64,000 nt of DNA, from NCBI GenBank assembly GCA_964610055.1, contig CAZSUC010000001.1, forward strand, positions 216,867 to 280,866, in the 5' to 3' direction. Position numbers and translations under genes: made by a program. Source of the stretch: an uncultured Candidatus Saccharibacteria bacterium (GTDB lineage Bacteria; Patescibacteriota; Andersenbacteria; UBA10190). This document shows positions 5,493 through 32,925 of this stretch, one piece after another. Below the pieces are notes generated by a model. That model was not told the DNA's origin. It was given only the letters and a program-made list of their open reading frames with translations, and did not search any database. Positions within the stretch are counted from its first letter, which is position 1; each line of letters begins with the position of its first letter.

Positions 5493-5571
5493 TCGAAGTG
5501 GTGGCGCCTCCTCGAGCTTCAGCGTGTGGGCCTAGTCGTTTCCGACTATTCCGCCGCTCCCCTTAGTTCTC

Positions 5572-5610
5572 TCCGCGCCCGACGCTTTGTGTCCGGGCGC
5601 TTTTTTATTA
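5572..5610 (+). terminator. rho-independent terminator (copy 1 of a repeated element)
   Basis: GCGCCCGGACGCTTTGTGTCCGGGCGC perfect hairpin followed by TTTTTTATT. Confidence 0.6.
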
Positions 5611-5698: not shown

Positions 5699-6193
5699 AT
5701 GTCCAAGCGCACTGAATTGGTTATCGCGATTTATCTCGCCTGTTTCTTGCTCGTGCTGAACTGGATCGGTTTATTCAATCTTATTGGCCAGCGTCTTATG
5801 CAGACCTATGGCCAACAATCCCCGCCTATTCCAGCAAAGGAGTGCCAGTCGACGCCTCCAGCTCATCACGTCGTCGATTCGTACGTTCAGCCCGCTTTGT
5901 TCACGGAACCTGTCAAAACCACTAGATTGATCACCTCGCGCAGTGATGACATTCTTATTTCCAAGGCCTGGCAGAAATTTCTTGAAAATCATATGAGCTT
6001 CATTGTGAGCTGTACTTCTCAGTACCAACCTTTGCGGGCAGGGGAGAAGCTAGTGGTTTTCCCTGTCTCCGGGTTGCCTCATGTCAGTATCGAAGCGCAT
6101 ATTGATTTCGAAAAAGGCGAAATCTGGGCCTGCATTAACGGCGGAGTCCTTCCTGATGACTGGGCTGACCTTGCTGACGGGCCTGACCCATGA
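5699..6193 (+). CDS. hypothetical membrane-anchored protein
   Basis: 164 aa ORF with an N-terminal TM helix, bracketed by the two repeated terminators. Confidence 0.45.
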   Translation: MSKRTELVIAIYLACFLLVLNWIGLFNLIGQRLMQTYGQQSPPIPAKECQSTPPAHHVVDSYVQPALFTEPVKTTRLITSRSDDILISKAWQKFLENHMSFIVSCTSQYQPLRAGEKLVVFPVSGLPHVSIEAHIDFEKGEIWACINGGVLPDDWADLADGPDP

Positions 6194-6205
6194 AAGACCT
6201 CATCC

Positions 6206-6245
6206 TTTTCGCGCCCGACGCTTTGCGTCCGGGCGCTCTTTTTAT
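6206..6245 (+). terminator. rho-independent terminator (copy 2 of repeated element)
   Basis: CGCGCCCGACGCTTTGCGTCCGGGCGC + TCTTTTTATTT. Differs from copy 1 by one base in the stem/loop. Confidence 0.6.
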
Positions 6246-11407: not shown

Positions 11408-11968
11408 TTGCCTAACGATATGATATCCTCCGGACAATTCCCCCAACAGAGAGTCGGGGTATTTGTTGATATCCAGAACATGTATTACTCAGCTCGGGCT
11501 TTATACAATAAAAAAGTTAATTTTAAAGCCATTCTTGAAGCCGCTGTTAATAATCGCCAACTCGTGCGAGCAATTGCCTATGGCATTACCACCGAAGAAG
11601 CGCACGAAGAAGAATTTCACGAAGCTTTAGCCAAACAAGGCTTTGAATTAAAAAATAAGCCCTTACAGACATTTCTTGGTGGCCAGAAAAAAGGCGACTG
11701 GGATGTTGGCATTGCTATTGATATCTTACGGTTAGAACCCAAAATAGACGTTGCTGTCCTTGTGAGCGGTGACGGTGATTTTATTCCACTCGTCTCTTTT
11801 GCTAAAGATCGGGGTCTGCGCATAGAAGTCGTCAGTTTTCGAGAAAGTACCTCTAGTGCGTTAATAGAAGCAGCTGATAGCTTTACTGATTTGTCGGATG
11901 GCCGCCAATTTCTTCTAAGTAATCGCATCGTTAAATCGACTCGACGTTCTCCTAAAATTATCTCCTAA
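11408..11968 (+). CDS. NYN-domain (LabA/DUF88-like) putative ribonuclease
   Basis: VFVDIQNMYYS...VLVSGDGDFIPLV motif arrangement typical of NYN/LabA nucleases. Sits between rpsO and pnp. Confidence 0.7.
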   Translation: MPNDMISSGQFPQQRVGVFVDIQNMYYSARALYNKKVNFKAILEAAVNNRQLVRAIAYGITTEEAHEEEFHEALAKQGFELKNKPLQTFLGGQKKGDWDVGIAIDILRLEPKIDVAVLVSGDGDFIPLVSFAKDRGLRIEVVSFRESTSSALIEAADSFTDLSDGRQFLLSNRIVKSTRRSPKIIS

Positions 11969-14462: not shown

Positions 14463-16472
14463 ATGGCCTCAAACGATTCGCAATCTCCTTCTCAATCAAC
14501 GCAGCCGCCGCAATTTAAAGCGCCGGTCTCTCCTCCTCGTTTGCAAGCTCAGCCAATAGTTAAAGGTTTATTACCGTCAAAAGATCATGTTTCTAACCCT
14601 GTCATTCCTCAGCCGCAATCTGATATTAAAACGCAAATTAGTGCTCCGTCATCACGAGAGCAATTACCTAAGCCAAATAAACCTTCTCAAAAAACATCGT
14701 CAATACCATCGTCTCCTTCTAATAAGCCATTATCTTCAGCTCCCAAAAAACTAGAAATTCACACAATGAAAGATGACATGGAGGCTTTGCGTGCTTCTAC
14801 CCTTAGTACGCCACAAATTTTACCGTCTAAGGATCAAAAGCCAGTACCTGTCGTTAAAACTATTTCCAAAACATCGTCTCCTTCTGCTCAGCAAACACAG
14901 GTATCAGTATCAGGCACACCTTCTGCTGTGCCTAAGCGTATTGTTTCTCAACCGTCCGTTCCTTCAAAAAAAGCACCTAGACATCGCAAAACTAACCGGA
15001 AAACTATCCGATCTCTATTTTTAACTATCTTATTGCTAGTAATTACTTTGGGGGGAGCGGGGGCATTTTGGTGGTACTTTGGCGACATGATTCTTCCGTC
15101 ATCAGAAACAGACACTATTTTAGCTACTGCGTCGCAAGTATTACCGTCTAATTACTCAATGATTATCGGATATCATTTTGATACTTTATCTGATCGAACC
15201 TCTGTTTCTTCTGTCTGGCAAAAACAAAGAGGTGATAAAACAGAAGATATCTCCGATTTGCTTAGTGGCGACCCGCGGCTGCTAATTGACGATCCTGAAA
15301 TAACTCAGATTTATTACGCTATTTTATCAGATAGCCCTCGCCCTTATTTAATTGTTCCTCAGGTTGAAAGTACAACGGCTCTTTTTGACGCTGCTGCTAG
15401 TCATATTCAAGCTACTACTTACAAGGGATGGTATGTCGTGCACCCTGTTGCAACTGAAAAATTTATTCAAGCCGTCTCAGATAGTCAGTTAGCTAACGAC
15501 AGTACTGATTATTCTGTGTTAGTGTCTACCCAAGCCAATGCACCAATTCGTGTGCTTCTTAATGCCAGTGTGATTGCTGCCATTAGTCAAGACGCTTTAG
15601 GCGAAGGACTAGGTAGCGCACAACTAAGCCAATTAAATTTAATCGGATATCCAGCTAACGATAATTCCACAATTGAATTTACGGGTGAAGCCGTTCAGAT
15701 TTCTTCCACTATTACCAATGGACTTATGTTGCAGAATAGTCGTGATTTATTAAATAAGATTCCAGATTCGGCCACATTTATTCGCTTAGGAGGTAGCTTT
15801 GCTGACGACCTTAGGGAATGGAGCGCTAATGCCACTGAAATTGATCAAGACGCTATCAATTTACCTAATGTACGTCAAACCATTGATCAACTCGAATCTC
15901 CTTATGCTTTTTACATCATCGAAAAGTCTGCCGGAGAACGTGATTTTGGTCTGATTATCGATTTACCTAGTGATTATCAAAATTTTATAACTGAGCCAGA
16001 TTCAGTGATTGAGGCTGGTTTGGCCGCTTTGATTCCAATTCTTACCGGAAGACAATCTGTTGCTTCGGTGGCCTTTTCAGATGGAGCTTATTCGGGGGTT
16101 AATCTAAGGTATGTAAATTTTTCTGGCTCAAACAGTGCTCTTGATTACGCCATTTCTGATCAATATTTGCTTATTGGCACTTCAAAAGACGCTATGTTTG
16201 ATCTCATTGATACGGTTCTAGGAAATAATTCATCTGTACCGTCATCTTCCTTATTCACTGAACTCTTGAATTCCTGGGGAGTTTTACCGGAAAGTCAAAA
16301 CTTAGTTATTAGTCAGGTTGGGTATGAGTATTTAAGCCAAATTCTGCCCATATCGTCTCCATCTGGTGAATTTAATTTTGGATATACTTCTACAATTGAT
16401 TCAAATTCTCCTTCAAAACGCTCTTTATCTGGAATTATTCAGCTCAATAATAGCTCCGAATCTTCTGACTAA
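14463..16472 (+). CDS. hypothetical membrane-anchored protein with Pro/Ser-rich N-terminal region
   Basis: 669 aa. A low-complexity S/P/Q-rich ~190 aa N-terminus, one TM helix (LFLTILLLVITLGGAGAFWWYF), then a large probably extracytoplasmic domain. Confidence 0.5.
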   Translation: MASNDSQSPSQSTQPPQFKAPVSPPRLQAQPIVKGLLPSKDHVSNPVIPQPQSDIKTQISAPSSREQLPKPNKPSQKTSSIPSSPSNKPLSSAPKKLEIHTMKDDMEALRASTLSTPQILPSKDQKPVPVVKTISKTSSPSAQQTQVSVSGTPSAVPKRIVSQPSVPSKKAPRHRKTNRKTIRSLFLTILLLVITLGGAGAFWWYFGDMILPSSETDTILATASQVLPSNYSMIIGYHFDTLSDRTSVSSVWQKQRGDKTEDISDLLSGDPRLLIDDPEITQIYYAILSDSPRPYLIVPQVESTTALFDAAASHIQATTYKGWYVVHPVATEKFIQAVSDSQLANDSTDYSVLVSTQANAPIRVLLNASVIAAISQDALGEGLGSAQLSQLNLIGYPANDNSTIEFTGEAVQISSTITNGLMLQNSRDLLNKIPDSATFIRLGGSFADDLREWSANATEIDQDAINLPNVRQTIDQLESPYAFYIIEKSAGERDFGLIIDLPSDYQNFITEPDSVIEAGLAALIPILTGRQSVASVAFSDGAYSGVNLRYVNFSGSNSALDYAISDQYLLIGTSKDAMFDLIDTVLGNNSSVPSSSLFTELLNSWGVLPESQNLVISQVGYEYLSQILPISSPSGEFNFGYTSTIDSNSPSKRSLSGIIQLNNSSESSD

Positions 16473-16520
16473 ATAATTTTGCTACTTAATTTTTAAGAGT
16501 AGCTAAGGTAATCTTTTTAC

Positions 16521-17771
16521 ATGCGTCTTAAAATTCGTGTTTTATTGCTCGTGATTATTCCAATAGTACTTCTTGGTGGTTCTTTAAGTATTGTCTTTCT
16601 TCCTTGGGCAACTTGGTATGTATTAGATCCAAACGCCACATATCGCATATTTTTTACGCCAAAAAGTATTCCTGAGGTTATGAAAAATCACAGCGCTCAA
16701 TTATTGCCAGGTATCAACGAAACAATTATTCAATATAGCCAGTTTGTAGCTATATACAGCGAAGGACAGTCGTTAATTTATATTATAAATCCAACTTTAA
16801 CAGGCCAGATTTTATTGCCTAAAATAACGAGACAGCAAGGATTAAATGTTCAAAGGTTAGGGCCGCTTTTACAAATCTCTTCTTCTGACAATAACCCTGT
16901 ACTATTAACTTCAAGCTTGCTAATCAAATCTTATGCTAAAGCAATATATCATGTTCCTCTTGATCACTTATCTTTTTACCCTGATTTAGTCGCAAATATT
17001 CCAGGAAATGAGCTTAATTATTCTTCAAATGTTAATTTAACTGGTGATTTTCAAGAACATGCTCTTAATTTTTATATTTCATCTGAAAAATTATCATTTA
17101 CAAAGACTCTTAATAATACAGAAAATAATAATGAAGACCTACGTATAGCTATACAAAGCGAATTATTAGAGTATATCCCAAAAGAATTACAAGACAATCT
17201 CAACCAAATAATTAAAGAAGATCTTAATTTTTCTTACACTCAACCCAATTTCATTAATAGTTTATCTGACGCCGAAGCTTTCGGAGTTTTATATTCGCCA
17301 GATAAAGGTTTCAGTCTTATTTATGACGGTGACCAGCCAGAAGAATTTGTTCAAATTGCAGAAACCTGGATTCAAGATGAAGAGCGTTATTCTCGTCCAA
17401 CAAAACGTGGTTTTAAAACCCCCGATGGAATTCTTGGTTATGAAATTGTCCCTGGTGAAGCCGAACCTGTTTTTCATGGCTGGCTATCAAATTGTCGCGA
17501 ACCCATTGATGGTAAAACTAATGTTTGGTTGTGTCGGCAGGGGAACAAAGTCTCCCTGGGGAGTAACGAATCCGCGACTCGCTCAGCTCTAGATTTACCA
17601 GTCTCAGATGAAAGCTGGTTGATTGATATTCCGCAATCAATTCTCACACAATTACATCAAAGTCAGGCCTGTCAAGGCAGTGCTGATCTTATCACTGATG
17701 CTTTATGTCAAACCAATGACTTGTTAATTAAATACGATAATGGAAGTCTGCAAATCTCTACAAAATTCTAA
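16521..17771 (+). CDS. hypothetical secreted/membrane-anchored protein
   Basis: 416 aa ORF with an N-terminal TM/signal-anchor (LLLVIIPIVLLGGSLSIVFL). Confidence 0.45.
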   Translation: MRLKIRVLLLVIIPIVLLGGSLSIVFLPWATWYVLDPNATYRIFFTPKSIPEVMKNHSAQLLPGINETIIQYSQFVAIYSEGQSLIYIINPTLTGQILLPKITRQQGLNVQRLGPLLQISSSDNNPVLLTSSLLIKSYAKAIYHVPLDHLSFYPDLVANIPGNELNYSSNVNLTGDFQEHALNFYISSEKLSFTKTLNNTENNNEDLRIAIQSELLEYIPKELQDNLNQIIKEDLNFSYTQPNFINSLSDAEAFGVLYSPDKGFSLIYDGDQPEEFVQIAETWIQDEERYSRPTKRGFKTPDGILGYEIVPGEAEPVFHGWLSNCREPIDGKTNVWLCRQGNKVSLGSNESATRSALDLPVSDESWLIDIPQSILTQLHQSQACQGSADLITDALCQTNDLLIKYDNGSLQISTKF

Positions 17772-18094
17772 TTATTTTTCATCCACAGCCCCTGGGGAAA
17801 AGGTGTCAAAAACATGAATACAAAATGTGTGCAAAAATCGATCCCACAGGATTGATTGTTAGTCAAAAAGATGCTATACTGTGATCAATACCAGTGAATT
17901 AGGCGCTGGGATGCACACAAACAAACGAAATTAAAATAACGATTCTAGCGAGAAAAGCCCGTGAACGGCTGCTAGAATCGCCCAAGGAGTTCTTTGCAAA
18001 ATAAATATTCGATAAAAACATCCAAGACTCTTCTCACTTTTTGACGGCTCTTTCTTTCTGAATTTTTAACTTGATTTACCTCATGATTTTAGCC

Positions 18095-18515
18095 GCTTCT
18101 GGGAGAGCGCGGTTAGGGAGTATTTCCCCCTATACTCCCTAACTGTGCTCTCTCAATATATGAGACGAAGAGCACACCTTGGCTGCGAGGATGAGGTCCC
18201 TCTGCGGACCCCACAATAAAAAAACAAACAATCAAAAACACGGACGTACCCTTGTACATTATCAGCGGTGCCCTCTCTAGCCTCTCGGGCTTTGGGGAGG
18301 AAGATCCGCAATCGCAGTTAAGGATTCTGTGCAAGCAGTAGGGCACAGAAACTCATTCCTTCCAGTAGGTACCCATTGTTATGGCCGTCCATGTCTGGCT
18401 TTACAGTTTTTCTGTAATGCCAGATACGGATGGCTATAACGGACTTGCTGGGAGCTCTCAAAAGCCCTCCGGTCCTTTAAATCTCTTAATCGGCCGTCGA
18501 GGGCTTTTTCTATTC
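18095..18515 (+). ncRNA. candidate structured ncRNA (possibly RNase P RNA / rnpB-like)
   Basis: ~750 bp region without a credible ORF. Densely nested perfect hairpins (GGTTAGGGAGTAT...ATACTCCCTAAC; GTGCTCT...AGAGCAC; GGTCC...GGACC). A 5'/3' complementary pair GGGAGAGC / GCTCTC could form a P1-like helix. Elements weakly resemble P4 (GAGGATGAGGTCC, GGCTATAACGGAC). Terminal hairpin AGCCCTCCGG...GAGGGCT + TTTTTCT. Confidence 0.3.
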
Positions 18516-18523
18516 TTAATTTT

Positions 18524-18892
18524 TTGTATACTGTCATTATGACTCCTAATCACTCTCATTATTCCGTTGAGTTTATTCAAGAAATGCAGGCACGGCTTGA
18601 AGATGAACGCCAAAAAATTAAATCTGAATTAAATCAGGATGCTCACCAGGAACATAGTGATTATGTCGCTAACTTCCCGGAATATGGTCGTACGGACGAA
18701 GAGAATGTCAGTGAAATCGCTGATTACACTACTCTAAATGCCACCACCGAAGCCTTAGAAAGCCGCCTCGATGATGTTAACTCCGCCTTAAATCGCATCT
18801 CTAACGGCACTTATGGCGTTACTGATTCCGGTGACATTATTCCTGAGGAACGATTACGCGCCAATCCTGCCGCCAATACACTTGTTCAATAA
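18524..18892 (+). CDS. DksA/TraR-family-like protein lacking the zinc-finger cysteines
   Basis: C-terminal ALNRISNGTYGVTDSGDIIPEERLRANPAA matches the DksA/TraR C4 finger region (AL.RI..GTYG.C..CG..I...RL.A.P.A), but all four Cys are replaced. N-terminal coiled-coil. Confidence 0.45.
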   Translation: MYTVIMTPNHSHYSVEFIQEMQARLEDERQKIKSELNQDAHQEHSDYVANFPEYGRTDEENVSEIADYTTLNATTEALESRLDDVNSALNRISNGTYGVTDSGDIIPEERLRANPAANTLVQ

Positions 18893-21992: not shown

Positions 21993-22067
21993 GGCGGTCG
22001 TAGCTTAATGGTAAAGCACCGGGTTGTGGTCCCGGCGACGTGGGTTCGATTCCCATCGATCGCCCCA
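21993..22067 (+). tRNA. tRNA-His (anticodon GTG) with G-1 and encoded CCA
   Basis: GGCGGTCGTAGCTTAATGGTAAAGCACCGGGTTGTGGTCCCGGCGACGTGGGTTCGATTCCCATCGATCGCCCCA. The extra 5' G pairs with C73, which is the His identity element. Confidence 0.9.
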
Positions 22068-22085
22068 ATTATATTAGTTACTTTT

Positions 22086-22667
22086 ATGGTTCATAAAAAA
22101 ACTACTGCCGAATTAGTTCAAGAACGCCCTCAGCCGGAACAAATGCAAAATTTACCTCGTCTTGAGCTTAATGTCGTAGTTGATAATGTTCGAAGTCTCG
22201 ATAATGTCGGGCTCATTTTTCGACTCTGCGAATTAGCTCGAGTGAATAAGCTTTATTTAACCGGCTATACTGGCCATCCTCGTCTGCCAGAAGGGGATAA
22301 TCGCGAAGAGGGTCTTATTTCTCGACATGAAAGCCGTATTTTTAAAACCGCTGTCTATGCTGTTCCTTTTCAGCCGTGGGCATACGTTCCTGATCCCGTT
22401 CCTTTGGTTCGCAAGCTCAAAAAATCAGGTCATCAGATTGTCGCGTTAGAGCAAACTGACCACAGTGTTTCTTATTGTGAGGCTTTATATCAACTTCCCA
22501 CCACTCTTATTGTCGGTCACGAACGCCTTGGCGTCCGAGCAGAATTGCTTGAATTAGCCGATTTACAGGTGGAAATTCCTATTCTTGGCCTAGGCAATTC
22601 GCATAATGTTGCTACCGCCACCGGGATCACTTTGTACCATATACTGGAAAAAACTCATCAAATCTGA
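22086..22667 (+). CDS. TrmH/SpoU family RNA 2'-O-methyltransferase
   Basis: SPOUT motifs (LDNVGLIFR; ALEQTDHS; LIVGHERLGV; GLGNSHNVATATGI). The ORF track start at 22008 runs through tRNA-His, so the internal Met at 22086 (MVHKK) is used. Confidence 0.7.
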   Translation: MVHKKTTAELVQERPQPEQMQNLPRLELNVVVDNVRSLDNVGLIFRLCELARVNKLYLTGYTGHPRLPEGDNREEGLISRHESRIFKTAVYAVPFQPWAYVPDPVPLVRKLKKSGHQIVALEQTDHSVSYCEALYQLPTTLIVGHERLGVRAELLELADLQVEIPILGLGNSHNVATATGITLYHILEKTHQI

Positions 22668-26312: not shown

Positions 26313-26483
26313 CATGCCAGCTAAAAAGAAGCGCACCGTAAAGAAGCGCACCGTTCGCAAGACCGCCAAGCGCAAAACGACTGCGCGTCGCAAGACCGCT
26401 GCTCGCAAGCCTGCGACTAAGCGCAAGACGACCCGCCGCAAAACGACGGCTCGCCGAAAGACCACCTCGCGCAAAAAGAAGTA
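26313..26483 (+). CDS. small lysine/arginine-rich histone H1-like DNA-binding protein (56 aa)
   Basis: Not in the ORF track (<60 aa). ATG preceded by GAGGAGGTGG with a 6-nt spacer. Encodes MPAKKKRTVKKRTVRKTAKRKTTARRKTAARKPATKRKTTRRKTTARRKTTSRKKK, followed by a strong terminator. The listed antisense ORFs 26289..26582 / 26293..26490 are rejected. Confidence 0.6.
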
Positions 26484-27169: not shown

Positions 27170-27219
27170 AAAATATCTTGCTCTCCATTATACCATGGCA
27201 ACAATGATATAATTAACTC

Positions 27220-28494
27220 ATGTCTGTACCCGCCAACTCTTCTCGCCGCTTTCTTATTTTAAGTCTCATTATCCTTATTCTTATCATCACAGCGCTCACC
27301 GCTTTTTTAGTGATTCAACGCTTGCGCGCTGATTCCTCCTCGTCTTCATCGTCTCTTTCGCTCACCGCAACTTCTCCGACTGTTAATCCTGTTATGACTA
27401 CCACTCCTTCTCCTTCTATAAATTTACTTTCTGCTGCCGTTCCTCCTTCTGAGACTTGGACCAATCTATTAGTAACAGTAAGTTACACTTCTTCGCCAAA
27501 CTTTATTGTTACGCTTGATGATCTTTTTCGTACTCCTGATACTAATTTTGACCAAGTTAGTCCCCTTGATACTAACCAGTACTCAGTTTTACGGGTCAAA
27601 GATAGTTCTGGCGCCGTATTGTCGGAACAAAAATTTACTTTAGCTACTCAAGCCTTAATGGAAGGGGATGGTTTAGACCCTTATCTATTTTCTTTTACTG
27701 ATGGCACTCAATCCGTCATTGTCACTCTGCCTGATTATTCCCAGCCCACTAGTATTGAGCTGCAGAAAAGCGATGGCACTGTGATTGCGCAACGTTCTTT
27801 TGCTTATTCCAGTCTGTCTTTAGATCCCGCTTACACTAATGTTAGTAATCTCACCACTAGCCCTTCCGCTTCCGCATCTTTTGATCAGCCGCTTACCATT
27901 GCTATTACTCATTCTTCCAATGATGCTAGTTTTGTCACTGCTGTAGCCGCCGCCACTATGGAAATGCTCCAAACAATTGCTCCTTGGCCCGATTATATCG
28001 ACAATATTAATCTTATGACCGTTCCTCTTACCCAAACTGATATTATTTTTGATTGCGAGCATGTCACAACTTCATCTGGTCAATATCCGGTTTGTCGTAA
28101 TCAACCATCTCAAATCCTCCAGCTCATGCGTAGTCAAACCGGCATCGTACCTGATTTTGTCATTGTTACTACGTCTGGTCAAAATCGCGGCTCTGTTCAA
28201 TTAACTAATGCGGGATATTCGAATATCATTACTGTAGGCAGCCAAAGCACTGCCAGCATGATCGCTCATGAATTCCTCCGTTCCCTTGGTCAATTTTCCG
28301 ATGATTCTCAAGTTGCTTCTGCTTACACTGCTACTGAAAAAATAGTCATCGATACCGCTTTAGCTGATCTAACTGGTAAATCCGATTGTGTTAGTTGCCA
28401 TTCATCCCCAACACCGACTCCAACTCCTACTGTCACACCTGTTTCTTCGTCTCAATCATCTTCCAGTCCTGGCTATTGGGGCTGGTCACGTTAA
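27220..28494 (+). CDS. hypothetical secreted protein with Ser/Thr-rich regions and C-terminal PT-repeat linker
   Basis: N-terminal signal anchor (LILSLIILILIITALTAFLVI), S-rich stretch, and C-terminal PTPTPTPTVTPV. Confidence 0.45.
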   Translation: MSVPANSSRRFLILSLIILILIITALTAFLVIQRLRADSSSSSSSLSLTATSPTVNPVMTTTPSPSINLLSAAVPPSETWTNLLVTVSYTSSPNFIVTLDDLFRTPDTNFDQVSPLDTNQYSVLRVKDSSGAVLSEQKFTLATQALMEGDGLDPYLFSFTDGTQSVIVTLPDYSQPTSIELQKSDGTVIAQRSFAYSSLSLDPAYTNVSNLTTSPSASASFDQPLTIAITHSSNDASFVTAVAAATMEMLQTIAPWPDYIDNINLMTVPLTQTDIIFDCEHVTTSSGQYPVCRNQPSQILQLMRSQTGIVPDFVIVTTSGQNRGSVQLTNAGYSNIITVGSQSTASMIAHEFLRSLGQFSDDSQVASAYTATEKIVIDTALADLTGKSDCVSCHSSPTPTPTPTVTPVSSSQSSSSPGYWGWSR

Positions 28495-31812: not shown

Positions 31813-31866
31813 AAGTAAATCAGTTTTAACTGATTTTTTTTCATTTGTCCACTATACTGCCTTCAT

Positions 31867-32925
31867 ATGGCAACTATCTTAAGCCTAGAAACTTCTTGCG
31901 ACGAAACCGGCGTGGCTATTTTAACCCAATCTGGCCCTGATGCTCCGGCAGTTTTAAGCCAATCTGTTTCTTCCCAAATCAATATTCATGCCTTAACCGG
32001 GGGAGTTGTCCCTGAAACCGCCGCTCGTGAGCACTCAGCCGTCATTGCTCCGATGATTTTGGATAATTTACGGCATAGTGGCTTACAGCCATCCAATTTA
32101 GACGCTATTGCGATAACCGTTGGCCCCGGGCTCATTCCTGCCTTAGTTGTAGGAGTGGCGACTGCTCAAACCTTAAGCTTTGCCTGGGATAAGCCGCTTG
32201 TGCCCGTTCACCATCTTGAAGGCCATATCTATTCCGCTTTATTATCCGCCCCTTCTCCTGATAGCTTATTTCCCGCTTTAGCCTTAATTGTCTCGGGCGG
32301 GCACACCTTATTAGTCCTTATTTCCGCTCATTTAACTTATCAAATCCTCGGCTCCACTCTCGATGATGCTGCCGGTGAAGCTTTTGATAAAGTTGCTCGC
32401 TTACTTGGCCTCCCTTATCCTGGTGGCCCCGCCTTAAGCCGCCTGGCTGAGTCTGGCAATCCGTCCGCATTCGATTTTCCGCGCCCTATGTTGCATGACT
32501 CTAGCCTGAATTTTAGTTTTTCTGGCCTTAAAACCGCAGTTCTATACACTTTCCGTGATTTAACCCAATCCGGAGCAGTCACAGCCGCTCAAAAAGCCGA
32601 TATTGCCGCTAGCTTTCAGCAAGCTGTTGTCGACGTGCTCGTCGCAAAAGCTTTTCGTGCCGCTTCCGAATACCATGCTCGCTCATTGTTATTAACCGGC
32701 GGAGTCGCTGCTAATCAATTGCTCAGACAAACCTTTCAGCTCAAAGCTGACCAAGCTGGGCTACCTTTATTAACCGCTCCTTTAGAGCTTTGCGGCGATA
32801 ACGGTGTTATGATTGGCCAAGCCGGACTTTATGCTTTCGCGGCTGGTCGAGTTAAATCGTGGTCGGAGATCGAAGCAACTGCCCGTCTTAGTATTGAAAC
32901 TTTTAGCCCAAGCACCTTACAGTAA
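31867..32925 (+). CDS. tsaD: tRNA N6-adenosine threonylcarbamoyltransferase TsaD (Kae1/Gcp family)
   Basis: N-terminal SLETSCDETGVAIL, metal-binding HHLEGH, and the GGVAAN block. Confidence 0.9.
   Translation: MATILSLETSCDETGVAILTQSGPDAPAVLSQSVSSQINIHALTGGVVPETAAREHSAVIAPMILDNLRHSGLQPSNLDAIAITVGPGLIPALVVGVATAQTLSFAWDKPLVPVHHLEGHIYSALLSAPSPDSLFPALALIVSGGHTLLVLISAHLTYQILGSTLDDAAGEAFDKVARLLGLPYPGGPALSRLAESGNPSAFDFPRPMLHDSSLNFSFSGLKTAVLYTFRDLTQSGAVTAAQKADIAASFQQAVVDVLVAKAFRAASEYHARSLLLTGGVAANQLLRQTFQLKADQAGLPLLTAPLELCGDNGVMIGQAGLYAFAAGRVKSWSEIEATARLSIETFSPSTLQ

What the first reader, a model, noticed from the sequence alone, without database searches (positions are those of the whole stretch)
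18095..18515. ~400-nt highly structured non-coding region, candidate RNase P RNA or other housekeeping ncRNA
The region has no plausible ORF (the only listed one is antisense and low-complexity). It has multiple perfect nested hairpins and a putative terminal helix formed by GGGAGAGC (5') and GCTCTC (3'). A 13-bp hairpin sits at the P3 position, and elements loosely resemble P4 strands. A terminator-like hairpin with a T-run ends it at about 18513. No rnpB, ssrA or ffs is otherwise visible in the window.
Basis: seen in the sequence. Interest (0 to 1): 0.5.

Follow-up and report, generated by a model that had tools for sequence, protein, structure and literature searches.

The report
Unclassified large structured RNA gene
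The flagged region is the 3' two-thirds of a roughly 625-nt structured RNA gene with its own promoter and terminator; its base pairs are conserved across candidate-phylum Andersenbacteria, yet it matches no known RNA family, RNase P included.

Summary
The structure is real. Window 18095-18515 folds far better than shuffles (z = -13) and has no conserved ORF. It is only part of a larger unit: an RNA of about 625 nt (about 17887-18512, + strand). A near-consensus promoter (TTGATT-17-TGCTATACT, 17852-17880) drives it and a long-stem terminator ends it.

Homologous copies of 590-956 nt lie upstream of a Cys-less DksA-like gene in about 45 distinct loci. These include all 28 Andersenbacteria-like species genomes retrieved. 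A reduced relative of about 400 nt occurs in an outgroup contig.

Covariation is strong. Of 75 consensus pairs, 53 show compensatory changes, and 94.6% of cells pair versus 37-47% in slid controls.

It is not RNase P, tmRNA, 6S or SRP RNA. No Rfam family hits the window or 20 homologous loci, even at permissive E-values, ARAGORN finds nothing, and P4 motifs occur only at chance level.

My best reading is an independent, strongly expressed, trans-acting structured RNA of a new family. A ribonucleoprotein scaffold role is inferred and the function is unknown. A cis-leader role for dksA is unlikely.

The parts
17815..17837 (+). Conserved palindrome-like DNA box (family consensus TGwACA-N7-TGTwCA; here TGAATACAAAATGTGTGCA) plus an A-tract, about 15-20 bp upstream of the -35 box. 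Candidate operator or UP-like element.
   Evidence: Columns 50-75 of alignment A2. TGT.C is invariant in 32 copies.
17852..17880 (+). Sigma-70-type promoter of the RNA: -35 TTGATT, 17-nt spacer, extended -10 TGCTATACT. Predicted start near A17887.
   Evidence: Promoter scan. The same TTGACC-17-TGnTAnAnT is present in all 43 full-length loci examined. It is the only promoter in the window with a good -35, a 17-nt spacer and an extended -10 in front of non-coding DNA.
17887..18512 (+). The whole RNA gene, about 625 nt.
   Evidence: nhmmer profile hits cover this span in about 45 loci. MFE is -239 kcal/mol with z = -11.8, and the single-sequence fold reproduces the comparative helices.
17891..17909 (+). 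H1, a small 5' hairpin (CCAG...CTGG).
   Evidence: Visible compensatory changes in A2: CUCAG/CUGAG, CUAAGC/GCUUAG, CUUAAGG/CCUUAAG. Present in the MFE fold.
17910..17939 (+). A/C-rich single-stranded linker 1 (family consensus ACAAACAAGCAAAACAAAC).
   Evidence: Conserved and unpaired in A2.
17940..17980 (+). H2 hairpin (CGATTCTAGC / GCTAGAATCG) with a conserved asymmetric internal loop (GAGA...).
   Evidence: All 8 pairs show changes on both sides, and 97-99% of cells pair.
17981..18079 (+). Hypervariable spacer. It is AU-rich here, about 10-30 nt in most relatives, and carries insertions of up to about 330 nt in L007 and L080.
   Evidence: A2 columns 262-490. Split nhmmer hits.
18080..18165 (+). 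Extended H3 stem-loop. Lower stem about 18080-18087 with 18158-18165, conserved 24-bp hairpin 18100-18155, apical loop UUCCCCCU at 18124-18131.
   Evidence: 19 consensus pairs, 12 with changes on both sides. 90-95% DNA identity to relatives whose DksA-like protein is about 50-60% identical. The flanks pair in most copies. The loop is kept in L102 on a different stem.
18177..18323 (+). Central multi-helix domain, closed by a 12-bp long-range helix (18177-18188 with 18312-18323). Contents: GAGGAUG (18187-18193; family consensus GAGGACG); hairpin Ha (18194-18212; tolerates inserts of up to about 170 nt); A/C-rich linker 2 (18213-18242); UUGUAC-type repeat motif (18243-18262); helix GCGG/CCGC (18265-18268 with 18306-18309); variable hairpin Hb (18270-18303); invariant CCGCAAU (18306-18312).
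   Evidence: 8 of the 12 long-range pairs change on both sides. Covariance model R1 of this domain scores 101.5 bits here and 66-157 bits on the other full-length copies (two contig-truncated copies score 40-58).
18326..18349 (+). Hairpin TCTGTGC / GCACAGA with a conserved AGCAG-containing loop.
   Evidence: Domain alignment and RNAalifold. Present in the MFE fold.
18359..18454 (+). 3' domain: 12-bp outer helix (18359-18370 with 18443-18454) enclosing a long irregular hairpin (about 18376-18440).
   Evidence: Helices 7-9: 19 of 23 pairs change on both sides. The window's register was worked out. MFE fold.
18460..18512 (+). Intrinsic terminator: outer stem AAAAGCCCTC / GAGGGCTTTT, an inner stem, a U-rich loop, then a T-run. 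It follows the conserved GAGCTC (18452-18457).
   Evidence: Helix 10: 5 of 7 pairs change on both sides. Conserved in all copies. The simple terminator scan missed it because the loop is longer than 8 nt.
18526..18892 (+). Neighbouring separate unit: -10 box TGTATACT (18526-18533), 5 nt further (GTCAT), then the ATG at 18539 (the same spacing as for the gene at 27220), followed by a 117-aa Cys-less DksA/TraR-family gene.
   Evidence: Same geometry as the leaderless gene at 27205-27220 and as the dksA promoters in L073, L076, L062, L065 and L064. Family assignment: PDB profile hit 6ptg E = 3e-11, and NCBIfam YteA/DksA matches below cut-off.

Best explanation
Window 17887-18512 (+) is a stand-alone gene for a structured RNA of about 625 nt. 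It belongs to an RNA family that has not been catalogued.

Transcription starts from a near-consensus sigma-70 promoter with an extended -10 box and stops at the gene's own intrinsic terminator.

The RNA has these parts:
- a 5' domain: hairpin H1, an A/C-only linker and hairpin H2;
- a hypervariable spacer;
- a long hairpin (H3) with a C-rich apical loop;
- a central multi-helix junction closed by a 12-bp long-range helix, holding near-invariant unpaired motifs (GAGGACG, CCGCAAU, a second A/C-only linker);
- a 3' domain and the terminator.

This part is inferred, not shown. The RNA most likely acts in trans as an abundant, stable RNA with a defined tertiary fold, either as a ribonucleoprotein scaffold or, less likely, as a ribozyme. 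On this reading the invariant single-stranded elements are contact sites for a partner. The conserved neighbour, a DksA-like protein that binds RNA polymerase, is the obvious partner to test.

Sub-probabilities:
- real structured RNA gene of a new family: about 0.9;
- an independent, trans-acting transcript rather than a leader: about 0.7;
- a scaffold role specifically: about 0.4.
For: Shown:
(1) Structure far beyond chance: z = -13.0 for the flagged region and -11.8 for the whole RNA.
(2) DNA-level conservation in about 45 distinct loci, always on the + strand, including all 28 species genomes L003-L030.
(3) Covariation. 53 of 75 pairs have compensatory changes. 94.6% of cells pair against 37-47% when partners are slid. 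370 double-change cells against 39-83. No shuffle out of 500 reaches the observed values. An unbiased column scan recovers the same helices.
(4) The strand is fixed by promoter and terminator orientation and by many G-U pairs. The + strand is the more stable one in 29 of 37 copies.
(5) The promoter is conserved in all 43 loci and the terminator in all copies.
(6) No ORF is conserved.
(7) The element is single-copy in the window and has no viral or phage match.
(8) dksA is a separate unit. It has its own -10 box set for a leaderless start in the window and in many loci. Repeat-filled insertions of 250-740 nt are tolerated between the RNA and dksA. L064 has dksA with its own promoter and no RNA upstream.
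(9) In the reduced relative L102 the promoter, the H3 loop (on a different stem), the long-range helix, UGAGG, the A/C linker, GAGCU and the terminator are all kept.

Inferred from established knowledge: a 0.7-Mb genome that keeps a 625-nt non-coding gene under a consensus promoter suggests an important cellular role. Conserved junction nucleotides together with variable peripheral stems are typical of RNAs with a tertiary fold.
Against: - There is no expression data, so the 5' and 3' ends are predictions.
- The function is not established by any test here.
- In one subclade (L009, L012-L014, L019-L030) the dksA ATG lies only about 22-25 nt after the terminator stem. The U-tract there is interrupted and I could find no clear dksA promoter, so read-through co-transcription is possible in those genomes.
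- All loci were retrieved through dksA, so how tightly the RNA is linked to dksA is partly an ascertainment effect. Whether the RNA occurs elsewhere could not be tested.
- The C-rich H3 loop is not universal; it is lost in that same subclade.
Confidence: 0.6

Rival explanations
1. A cis-acting 5' leader or attenuator. The RNA would be the long 5' untranslated region of the dksA-like operon. Its terminator would be a regulated attenuator that sets dksA (and lspA/comM) expression in response to a signal sensed by the structured domains.
For: The RNA sits immediately upstream of dksA, on the same strand, in about 45 loci, even where other neighbours change. In subclade B the ATG follows the terminator by about 22-25 nt, with a weak U-tract and no obvious promoter. 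The organism does not use Shine-Dalgarno sequences, so internal initiation would not need one.
Against: In the window and many other loci dksA has its own -10 box placed for a leaderless start. Repeat-filled insertions of 250-740 nt separate the RNA from dksA in L004, L007, L008, L017, L024 and L080. L064 has dksA (54% identical) with its own promoter directly after a protein-coding gene and no RNA. About 600 nt with a multi-domain fold is far larger than any known leader. The adjacency is also partly an artefact of how the loci were retrieved.
Confidence: 0.15
2. A regulator linked to RNA polymerase or DksA (6S-like in function), or a protein-titrating sponge. The RNA would bind and sequester RNA polymerase, the DksA-like protein, or a single-strand RNA-binding protein through its two A/C-only linkers. 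This would be analogous to 6S RNA or to CrcZ/CsrB-type sponges.
For: Conserved linkage to a gene of the DksA family of RNA-polymerase-binding proteins. Two conserved, unpaired, G-poor A/C linkers resemble this organism's translation-initiation regions. The promoter is strong.
Against: There is no 6S-like rod with a central bubble and no Rfam 6S hit. There are only two linkers rather than an array of repeated binding motifs. No binding data exist. This is a sub-case of the trans-acting reading rather than a contradiction of it.
Confidence: 0.15
3. A highly divergent member of a known housekeeping RNA family: RNase P RNA, tmRNA, 6S RNA or SRP RNA.
For: It has housekeeping-like expression signals and conservation. 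No rnpB, ssrA or ffs is found in this 64-kb window. A loose GAGGAAGATCCGC string lies at 18297-18309.
Against: No Rfam hit in the element at E <= 10 in the window, or at E <= 5 in 11 diverse copies. None at gathering score in 20 loci. ARAGORN is negative. The P4 5' motif is at chance level and sits in a non-conserved arm, and the P4 3' motif is absent. The 5' and 3' ends do not form a terminal helix. The size, about 625 nt, does not fit any of these families.
Confidence: 0.03
4. Not a functional RNA: a pile-up of palindromic or MITE-like repeats, a decayed gene, or a missed protein-coding gene.
For: It has long, near-perfect hairpins. MITE-like repeats do occur next to the element in some relatives.
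Against: The hairpins have no other copies in the window. The element is at the same position in about 45 loci, with compensatory substitutions. The promoter and terminator are conserved. No ORF is conserved and indels are frequent.
Confidence: 0.02

Closest known systems
OLE RNA (ornate, large, extremophilic; about 610 nt; Rfam RF01071)
   Same: Similar size. A many-helix architecture with many conserved unpaired nucleotides. A chromosomal, vertically inherited, single-copy gene restricted to one bacterial lineage. A conserved neighbouring gene that may encode a partner (OLE has oapA).
   Different: No sequence or structure match by Rfam. Different lineage (CPR, not Firmicutes). The neighbour here is a DksA-like protein, not the membrane protein OapA. 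OLE is embedded in an operon, whereas this RNA has its own promoter and terminator.
ROOL and GOLLD RNAs (about 580 and 800 nt; large RNAs of unknown function that form RNA-only multimeric assemblies)
   Same: Large, ornate, function unknown. Variable peripheral insertions around a conserved core.
   Different: No Rfam match. ROOL and GOLLD are often associated with phages or tRNA genes, while this RNA is chromosomal with no viral or phage match. Multimerisation was not tested.
Bacterial RNase P RNA (types A and B)
   Same: A strongly expressed, structured, lineage-wide RNA with a conserved core and variable periphery.
   Different: No covariance-model match, no P4 pseudoknot motifs and no terminal P1 helix, and it is about 1.6 times larger.
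6S RNA
   Same: A possible functional link to RNA polymerase, but only through the neighbouring DksA-family gene. It also has a strong promoter.
   Different: The structure is multi-domain, not a rod with a central bubble. It is about 3.5 times larger. No Rfam hit.
CrcZ / CsrB-type protein-sponge RNAs
   Same: It contains conserved unpaired A-rich or A/C-rich stretches that could bind a single-strand RNA-binding protein.
   Different: There are only two such stretches. Most of the conservation lies in helices and junctions, not in repeated binding motifs.

Membership tests
RNase P RNA (bacterial type A/B) | Match to the family covariance models (Rfam RNaseP_bact_a and RNaseP_bact_b) | tested here: not met
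   No hit in the window at gathering score. None at E <= 10 on 17700-18620. None in 20 homologous loci at gathering score, or in 11 at E <= 5.
RNase P RNA (bacterial type A/B) | P4 helix formed by the universally conserved strands GAGGAAAGUCC... and ACAGAAnnCGGCUUA | tested here: not met
   The 5' motif has only a 3-mismatch match at 18297-18309, at chance level (14 found, 11.4 expected), and it sits in a non-conserved hairpin arm. The 3' motif has no match in the element.
RNase P RNA (bacterial type A/B) | Terminal P1 helix pairing the 5' and 3' ends | tested here: not met
   The proposed 5' strand GGGAGAGC pairs locally (18101-18111 with 18144-18154) with covariation. The true 5' end lies about 210 nt upstream.
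RNase P RNA (bacterial type A/B) | Pre-tRNA 5'-leader cleavage activity | not testable with these tools
   Needs a biochemical assay.
tmRNA | tRNA-like domain plus a tag-peptide reading frame | tested here: not met
   ARAGORN finds no tmRNA in 17600-18700. No Rfam tmRNA hit.
6S RNA | A rod-like fold of about 180 nt with a large central bubble; Rfam 6S models | tested here: not met
   The consensus structure is multi-domain with a long-range closing helix. No Rfam hit.
SRP RNA | Match to the SRP models (domain IV motif) | tested here: not met
   No Rfam hit.
OLE / ROOL / GOLLD / raiA large RNAs | Match to the respective Rfam covariance models | tested here: not met
   No hit at E <= 10 in the window or E <= 5 in 11 relatives.
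Cis-regulatory leader (riboswitch or attenuator) of the downstream gene | The downstream gene has no promoter of its own and depends on read-through of the element's terminator | tested here: not met
   In the window and in clade A, dksA has its own -10 box set for a leaderless start. Insertions of 250-740 nt are tolerated between the RNA and dksA. L064 has dksA without the RNA. The test is inconclusive for subclade B, where no dksA promoter is evident.
MITE / REP-type repeated palindromes | Multiple dispersed copies in the genome | tested here: not met
   No second copy of any hairpin in the 64-kb window. The element sits at one conserved position in relatives.
Hammerhead ribozyme (H2 of some relatives reads CUGAUGAG...GAA) | Unpaired CUGAUGA/GAAA catalytic core flanked by three stems; Rfam hammerhead models | tested here: not met
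   The CUGAU is base-paired with AUCAG in a covarying stem, and the window has CUAGC instead. No Rfam hit.

The most novel reading that the evidence does not exclude
This may be a new class of large housekeeping RNA specific to one CPR lineage. It could be a ribozyme, or the RNA core of a ribonucleoprotein that works with the adjacent Cys-less DksA-like protein and RNA polymerase. On that reading its invariant junction motifs and C-rich loop form an active or binding site. It would join the very short list of bacterial RNAs over 600 nt with a complex fold (RNase P, OLE, ROOL, GOLLD), and it would point to unrecognised RNA-based biology in ultra-small bacteria.
Probability: 0.3. Interest if true: 0.9.

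Novelty: categorically new. Interest (0 to 1): 0.72.

Why it matters
Only a handful of large bacterial RNAs (over 500 nt) with a conserved, covarying multi-domain fold are known. Those that have been studied turned out to be ribozymes, ribonucleoprotein cores or striking RNA-only assemblies.

This one comes from the Candidate Phyla Radiation, whose members have genomes of about 0.7 Mb and are mostly uncultured. It sits under a near-perfect promoter and is kept in every Andersenbacteria-like genome retrieved. That argues for an important function that no protein annotation would reveal.

Its persistent pairing with a DksA-family gene gives a concrete hypothesis to test. The alignment, consensus structure and covariance model made here can be used directly for database-wide searches, metatranscriptome mapping, in-vitro probing and cryo-EM.

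Tried and rejected
- **Rfam.** Searched at gathering score and at permissive E-values, on the window and on 20 and 11 homologous loci. Only tRNAs and chance hits to miRNA-hairpin or lncRNA models appeared.
- **tmRNA.** ARAGORN found none.
- **RNase P P4 motifs.** Matches were at chance level or absent.
- **Repeats or MITE.** No other copies in the window.
- **Viral or phage origin.** No match.
- **Upstream 416-aa protein as a route to relatives.** It is an orphan whose only hit is itself, so I switched to the DksA-like gene.
- **Q-INS-i structural alignment.** Not installed. I used anchored L-INS-i sub-alignments and a covariance model instead.
- **Bistable switch.** The 3' strand of H3 can also pair with a downstream segment. 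The better explanation is that this segment pairs with sequence 5' of H3 and extends the stem. The switch idea was dropped as unsupported.
- **Anti-Shine-Dalgarno role for the C-rich loop.** Rejected because this genome has almost no Shine-Dalgarno sites.
- **Hammerhead-like letters in H2.** They are base-paired and give no model hit.
- **Small ORFs.** None is conserved.
- **Literature.** Four searches found no description.
- **Pseudoknots.** The unbiased covariation scan found none that was convincing.

Full report
**Observation.** The flagged stretch 18095-18515 lies in a 767-nt spacer (17772-18538). The spacer separates an orphan 416-aa membrane-anchored ORF from a 117-aa DksA-like gene.
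- The + strand folds to -196.3 kcal/mol, against -122 for shuffles (z = -13.0). The - strand reaches only z = -7.1.
- G+C rises to about 0.50, against about 0.38 in the flanks.
- The hairpins are not repeated anywhere else in the window.
- The structure and the lack of coding potential are therefore real and far beyond chance.

**Known families.** No known RNA family fits.
- Rfam 15 at gathering score finds only five tRNAs in the window.
- A permissive scan (E <= 10) of 17700-18620 gives only chance hits to miRNA-hairpin and lncRNA models.
- ARAGORN finds no tmRNA.
- The universal RNase P P4 strand motifs are at chance level or absent.
- The same negative result holds for 20 homologous loci at gathering score and 11 at E <= 5. 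No sub-threshold hit falls inside the element in any copy.

**Relatives.**
- The upstream protein has no homologs apart from itself. The DksA-like protein has 41.
- Using their alignment I fetched 137 loci from species-representative genomes and from metagenomes. The closest are labelled Candidatus Andersenbacteria (Patescibacteria/CPR).
- blastn and iterated nhmmer show that almost the whole spacer is conserved, not just the flagged part. About 45 distinct loci match (E about 1e-60 to 1e-112 for the full-length copies), always on the + strand and just upstream of the dksA-like gene.
- All 28 genome loci whose DksA-like protein is at least about 40% identical (L003-L030) carry the element.
- Copy length ranges from 590 to 956 nt.
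- The 24-bp hairpin at 18100-18149 is 90-95% identical in genomes whose DksA-like protein is only about 50-60% identical.

**Anatomy** (alignment A2; sub-alignments).
- A conserved palindrome-like box and A-tract (17815-17837) precede the promoter.
- The promoter is near-consensus: TTGACC-17-TGnTAnAnT in the family, TTGATT-17-TGCTATACT at 17852-17880 here. It is present in all 43 full-length loci and puts the start near 17887.
- The RNA then has, in order:
  - H1 (17891-17909);
  - an A/C-only linker (17910-17939);
  - H2 (17940-17980);
  - a hypervariable spacer (17981-18079);
  - an extended H3 stem-loop (18080-18165) whose apex is the conserved hairpin with loop UUCCCCCU;
  - a central domain (18177-18323) closed by a 12-bp long-range helix;
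  - a hairpin (18326-18349);
  - a 3' domain (18359-18454);
  - a long-stem terminator with a T-run (18460-18512).
- The central domain holds GAGGACG, an insertion-tolerant hairpin, a second A/C-only linker, a UUGUAC-type repeat, a GCGG/CCGC helix and the invariant CCGCAAU.
- The window's own minimum-free-energy fold of 17887-18515 (z = -11.8) reproduces these helices independently.

**Covariation.**
- RNAalifold on 32 copies predicts 75 pairs, and 53 of them have compensatory double changes.
- In the control analysis 94.6% of cells form standard pairs, against 37-47% when partners are slid by 1-3 columns.
- There are 370 double-change cells against 39-83 in the slid controls. None of 500 shuffles reaches any observed measure.
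- An unbiased scan of all column pairs recovers the same helices and finds no convincing pseudoknot.
- Abundant G-U pairs, the promoter and terminator orientation, and greater + strand stability in 29 of 37 copies fix the strand.
- No ORF is conserved in position or strand.

- Right: the region is a structured non-coding RNA that ends in a terminator near 18513.
- Wrong: the proposed terminal helix, since GGGAGAGC pairs locally within H3.
- Wrong: the P3/P4 analogies, and hence the RNase P assignment.
- Wrong: the 5' boundary, which misses about 210 nt of RNA and the promoter.

**Independent gene or leader of dksA?** Most evidence favours an independent gene.
- Extended -10 promoters are this genome's standard. 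A -10 box followed by five more bases and then the ATG marks leaderless genes, as at 27205-27220.
- dksA in the window has exactly this geometry (TGTATACT-GTCATT-ATG). So do L073, L076, L062 and L065.
- In L004, L007, L008, L017, L024 and L080, 250-740 nt of repeated palindromic elements lie between the RNA's terminator and dksA.
- L064 has a 54%-identical dksA with its own leaderless promoter directly after a protein-coding gene, and no RNA.
- These points argue for separate transcription units.
- One caveat remains. In subclade B the ATG lies about 22-25 nt after a terminator with a weak U-tract, and I see no clear promoter there. Read-through is possible in those genomes.
- The genome almost entirely lacks Shine-Dalgarno sites. 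Their absence before dksA is therefore uninformative, and an anti-SD role for the C-rich loop is unlikely.

**Breadth of the family.**
- A covariance model of the central domain (R1, from A3) scores 66-157 bits on the full-length copies (101.5 on the window) and 40-58 on two contig-truncated ones. It gives one weak hit, in outgroup contig L102 (18.3 bits).
- L102 has the same pnp-p669-gap-dksA-comM synteny and a reduced relative of about 400 nt.
- That relative keeps a perfect promoter, an H3 whose stem sequence is entirely different but whose loop is the same UUUCCCCCU, and a perfect 9-bp long-range helix. It also keeps UGAGG, the A/C linker, GAGCU and a terminator.
- A loop conserved on a covarying stem marks a functional single-stranded contact site.
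- More distant Patescibacteria have a protein-coding gene in the equivalent position.

**The neighbour.** The protein is a true DksA/TraR-family member. The profile hits PDB 6ptg at E = 3e-11, and also 2kq9 and E. coli DksA 1tjl, and NCBIfam gives YteA and DksA matches below cut-off. It has no zinc-finger cysteines.

**Interpretation.**
- Shown: this is a bona fide structured RNA gene with its own expression signals. It is conserved by selection on base pairing across a class-level CPR lineage, and it is unrelated to any catalogued RNA family or mobile element.
- Inferred: it acts in trans as a stable, abundant RNA with a defined tertiary fold, most plausibly a ribonucleoprotein scaffold and less likely a ribozyme. 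The DksA-like protein and RNA polymerase are the first partners to test.
- Literature searches found no prior description.
- I could not test expression, the presence of canonical rnpB or ssrA elsewhere in the genome, or whether the RNA occurs away from dksA.

**Verdict.** The RNase P interpretation is rejected. The element is best described as the first recognised member, in this window, of a new family of large structured bacterial RNAs of unknown function.

Noticed in passing
window, 45 gene starts (e.g. 27205-27222, 18526-18541, 31850-31869): Almost no gene in the window has a Shine-Dalgarno sequence. Promoters are of the extended -10 type (TGnTAnAAT), and several are followed by about five more bases and then the ATG, which implies leaderless mRNAs.
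   Followed up: partly
window 17815-17837 (and A2 columns 50-75 in all relatives): A conserved palindrome-like box (TGwACA-N7-TGTwCA) plus an A-tract lies just upstream of the RNA's -35 box. It may be a transcription-factor operator or a UP-like element. A similar UUGUAC-type repeat occurs inside the RNA at 18243-18262.
   Followed up: no
L004:2740-2990, L017:2264-2990, L024:2566-2990, L008:1317-1630, L080:2465-2990, L073:560-830: In these loci the spacer between the RNA's terminator and dksA is filled with repeated units, such as ATTTTGAGAGAAAAATAACCC followed by G+C-rich hairpins. They look like small MITE/REP-like insertions.
   Followed up: partly
L102:2335-2775: An outgroup contig carries a reduced relative of the RNA, about 400 nt long, that lacks most of the 5' domain. 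It keeps the C-rich H3 loop on a completely different stem.
   Followed up: partly
L064:560-610: A close dksA homolog (54% identical) sits directly after a G+C-rich protein-coding gene, with its own leaderless promoter and no RNA upstream. It is the only in-clade exception to the RNA-dksA adjacency. The contig is only 1.3 kb long.
   Followed up: partly
window 14463-17771 and relatives: Two lineage-specific proteins with predicted membrane anchors and no Pfam domain (669 aa and 416 aa) lie upstream of the RNA in many loci, but not all. They evolve fast (20-40% identity).
   Followed up: partly
window 5569-5606 and 6205-6242: Two 89%-identical terminator-like hairpins (CGCGCCCGACGCTTTG.GTCCGGGCGC followed by a T-run) flank the 164-aa ORF at 5699-6193.
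   Followed up: no
window 26356-26474: Three tandem copies of a 33-nt unit (53-nt overlapping alignments; CGCAAGACCGC...), with no ORF of 150 aa or more listed over them.
   Followed up: no
window 21994-22064 and 22008-22667: The listed start of the 219-aa ORF overlaps a tRNA gene on the same strand, so the true start codon is probably further downstream.
   Followed up: no
window 11408-11968: A 186-aa NYN-domain protein (PF01936, E = 2e-38) is encoded just upstream of pnp.
   Followed up: no
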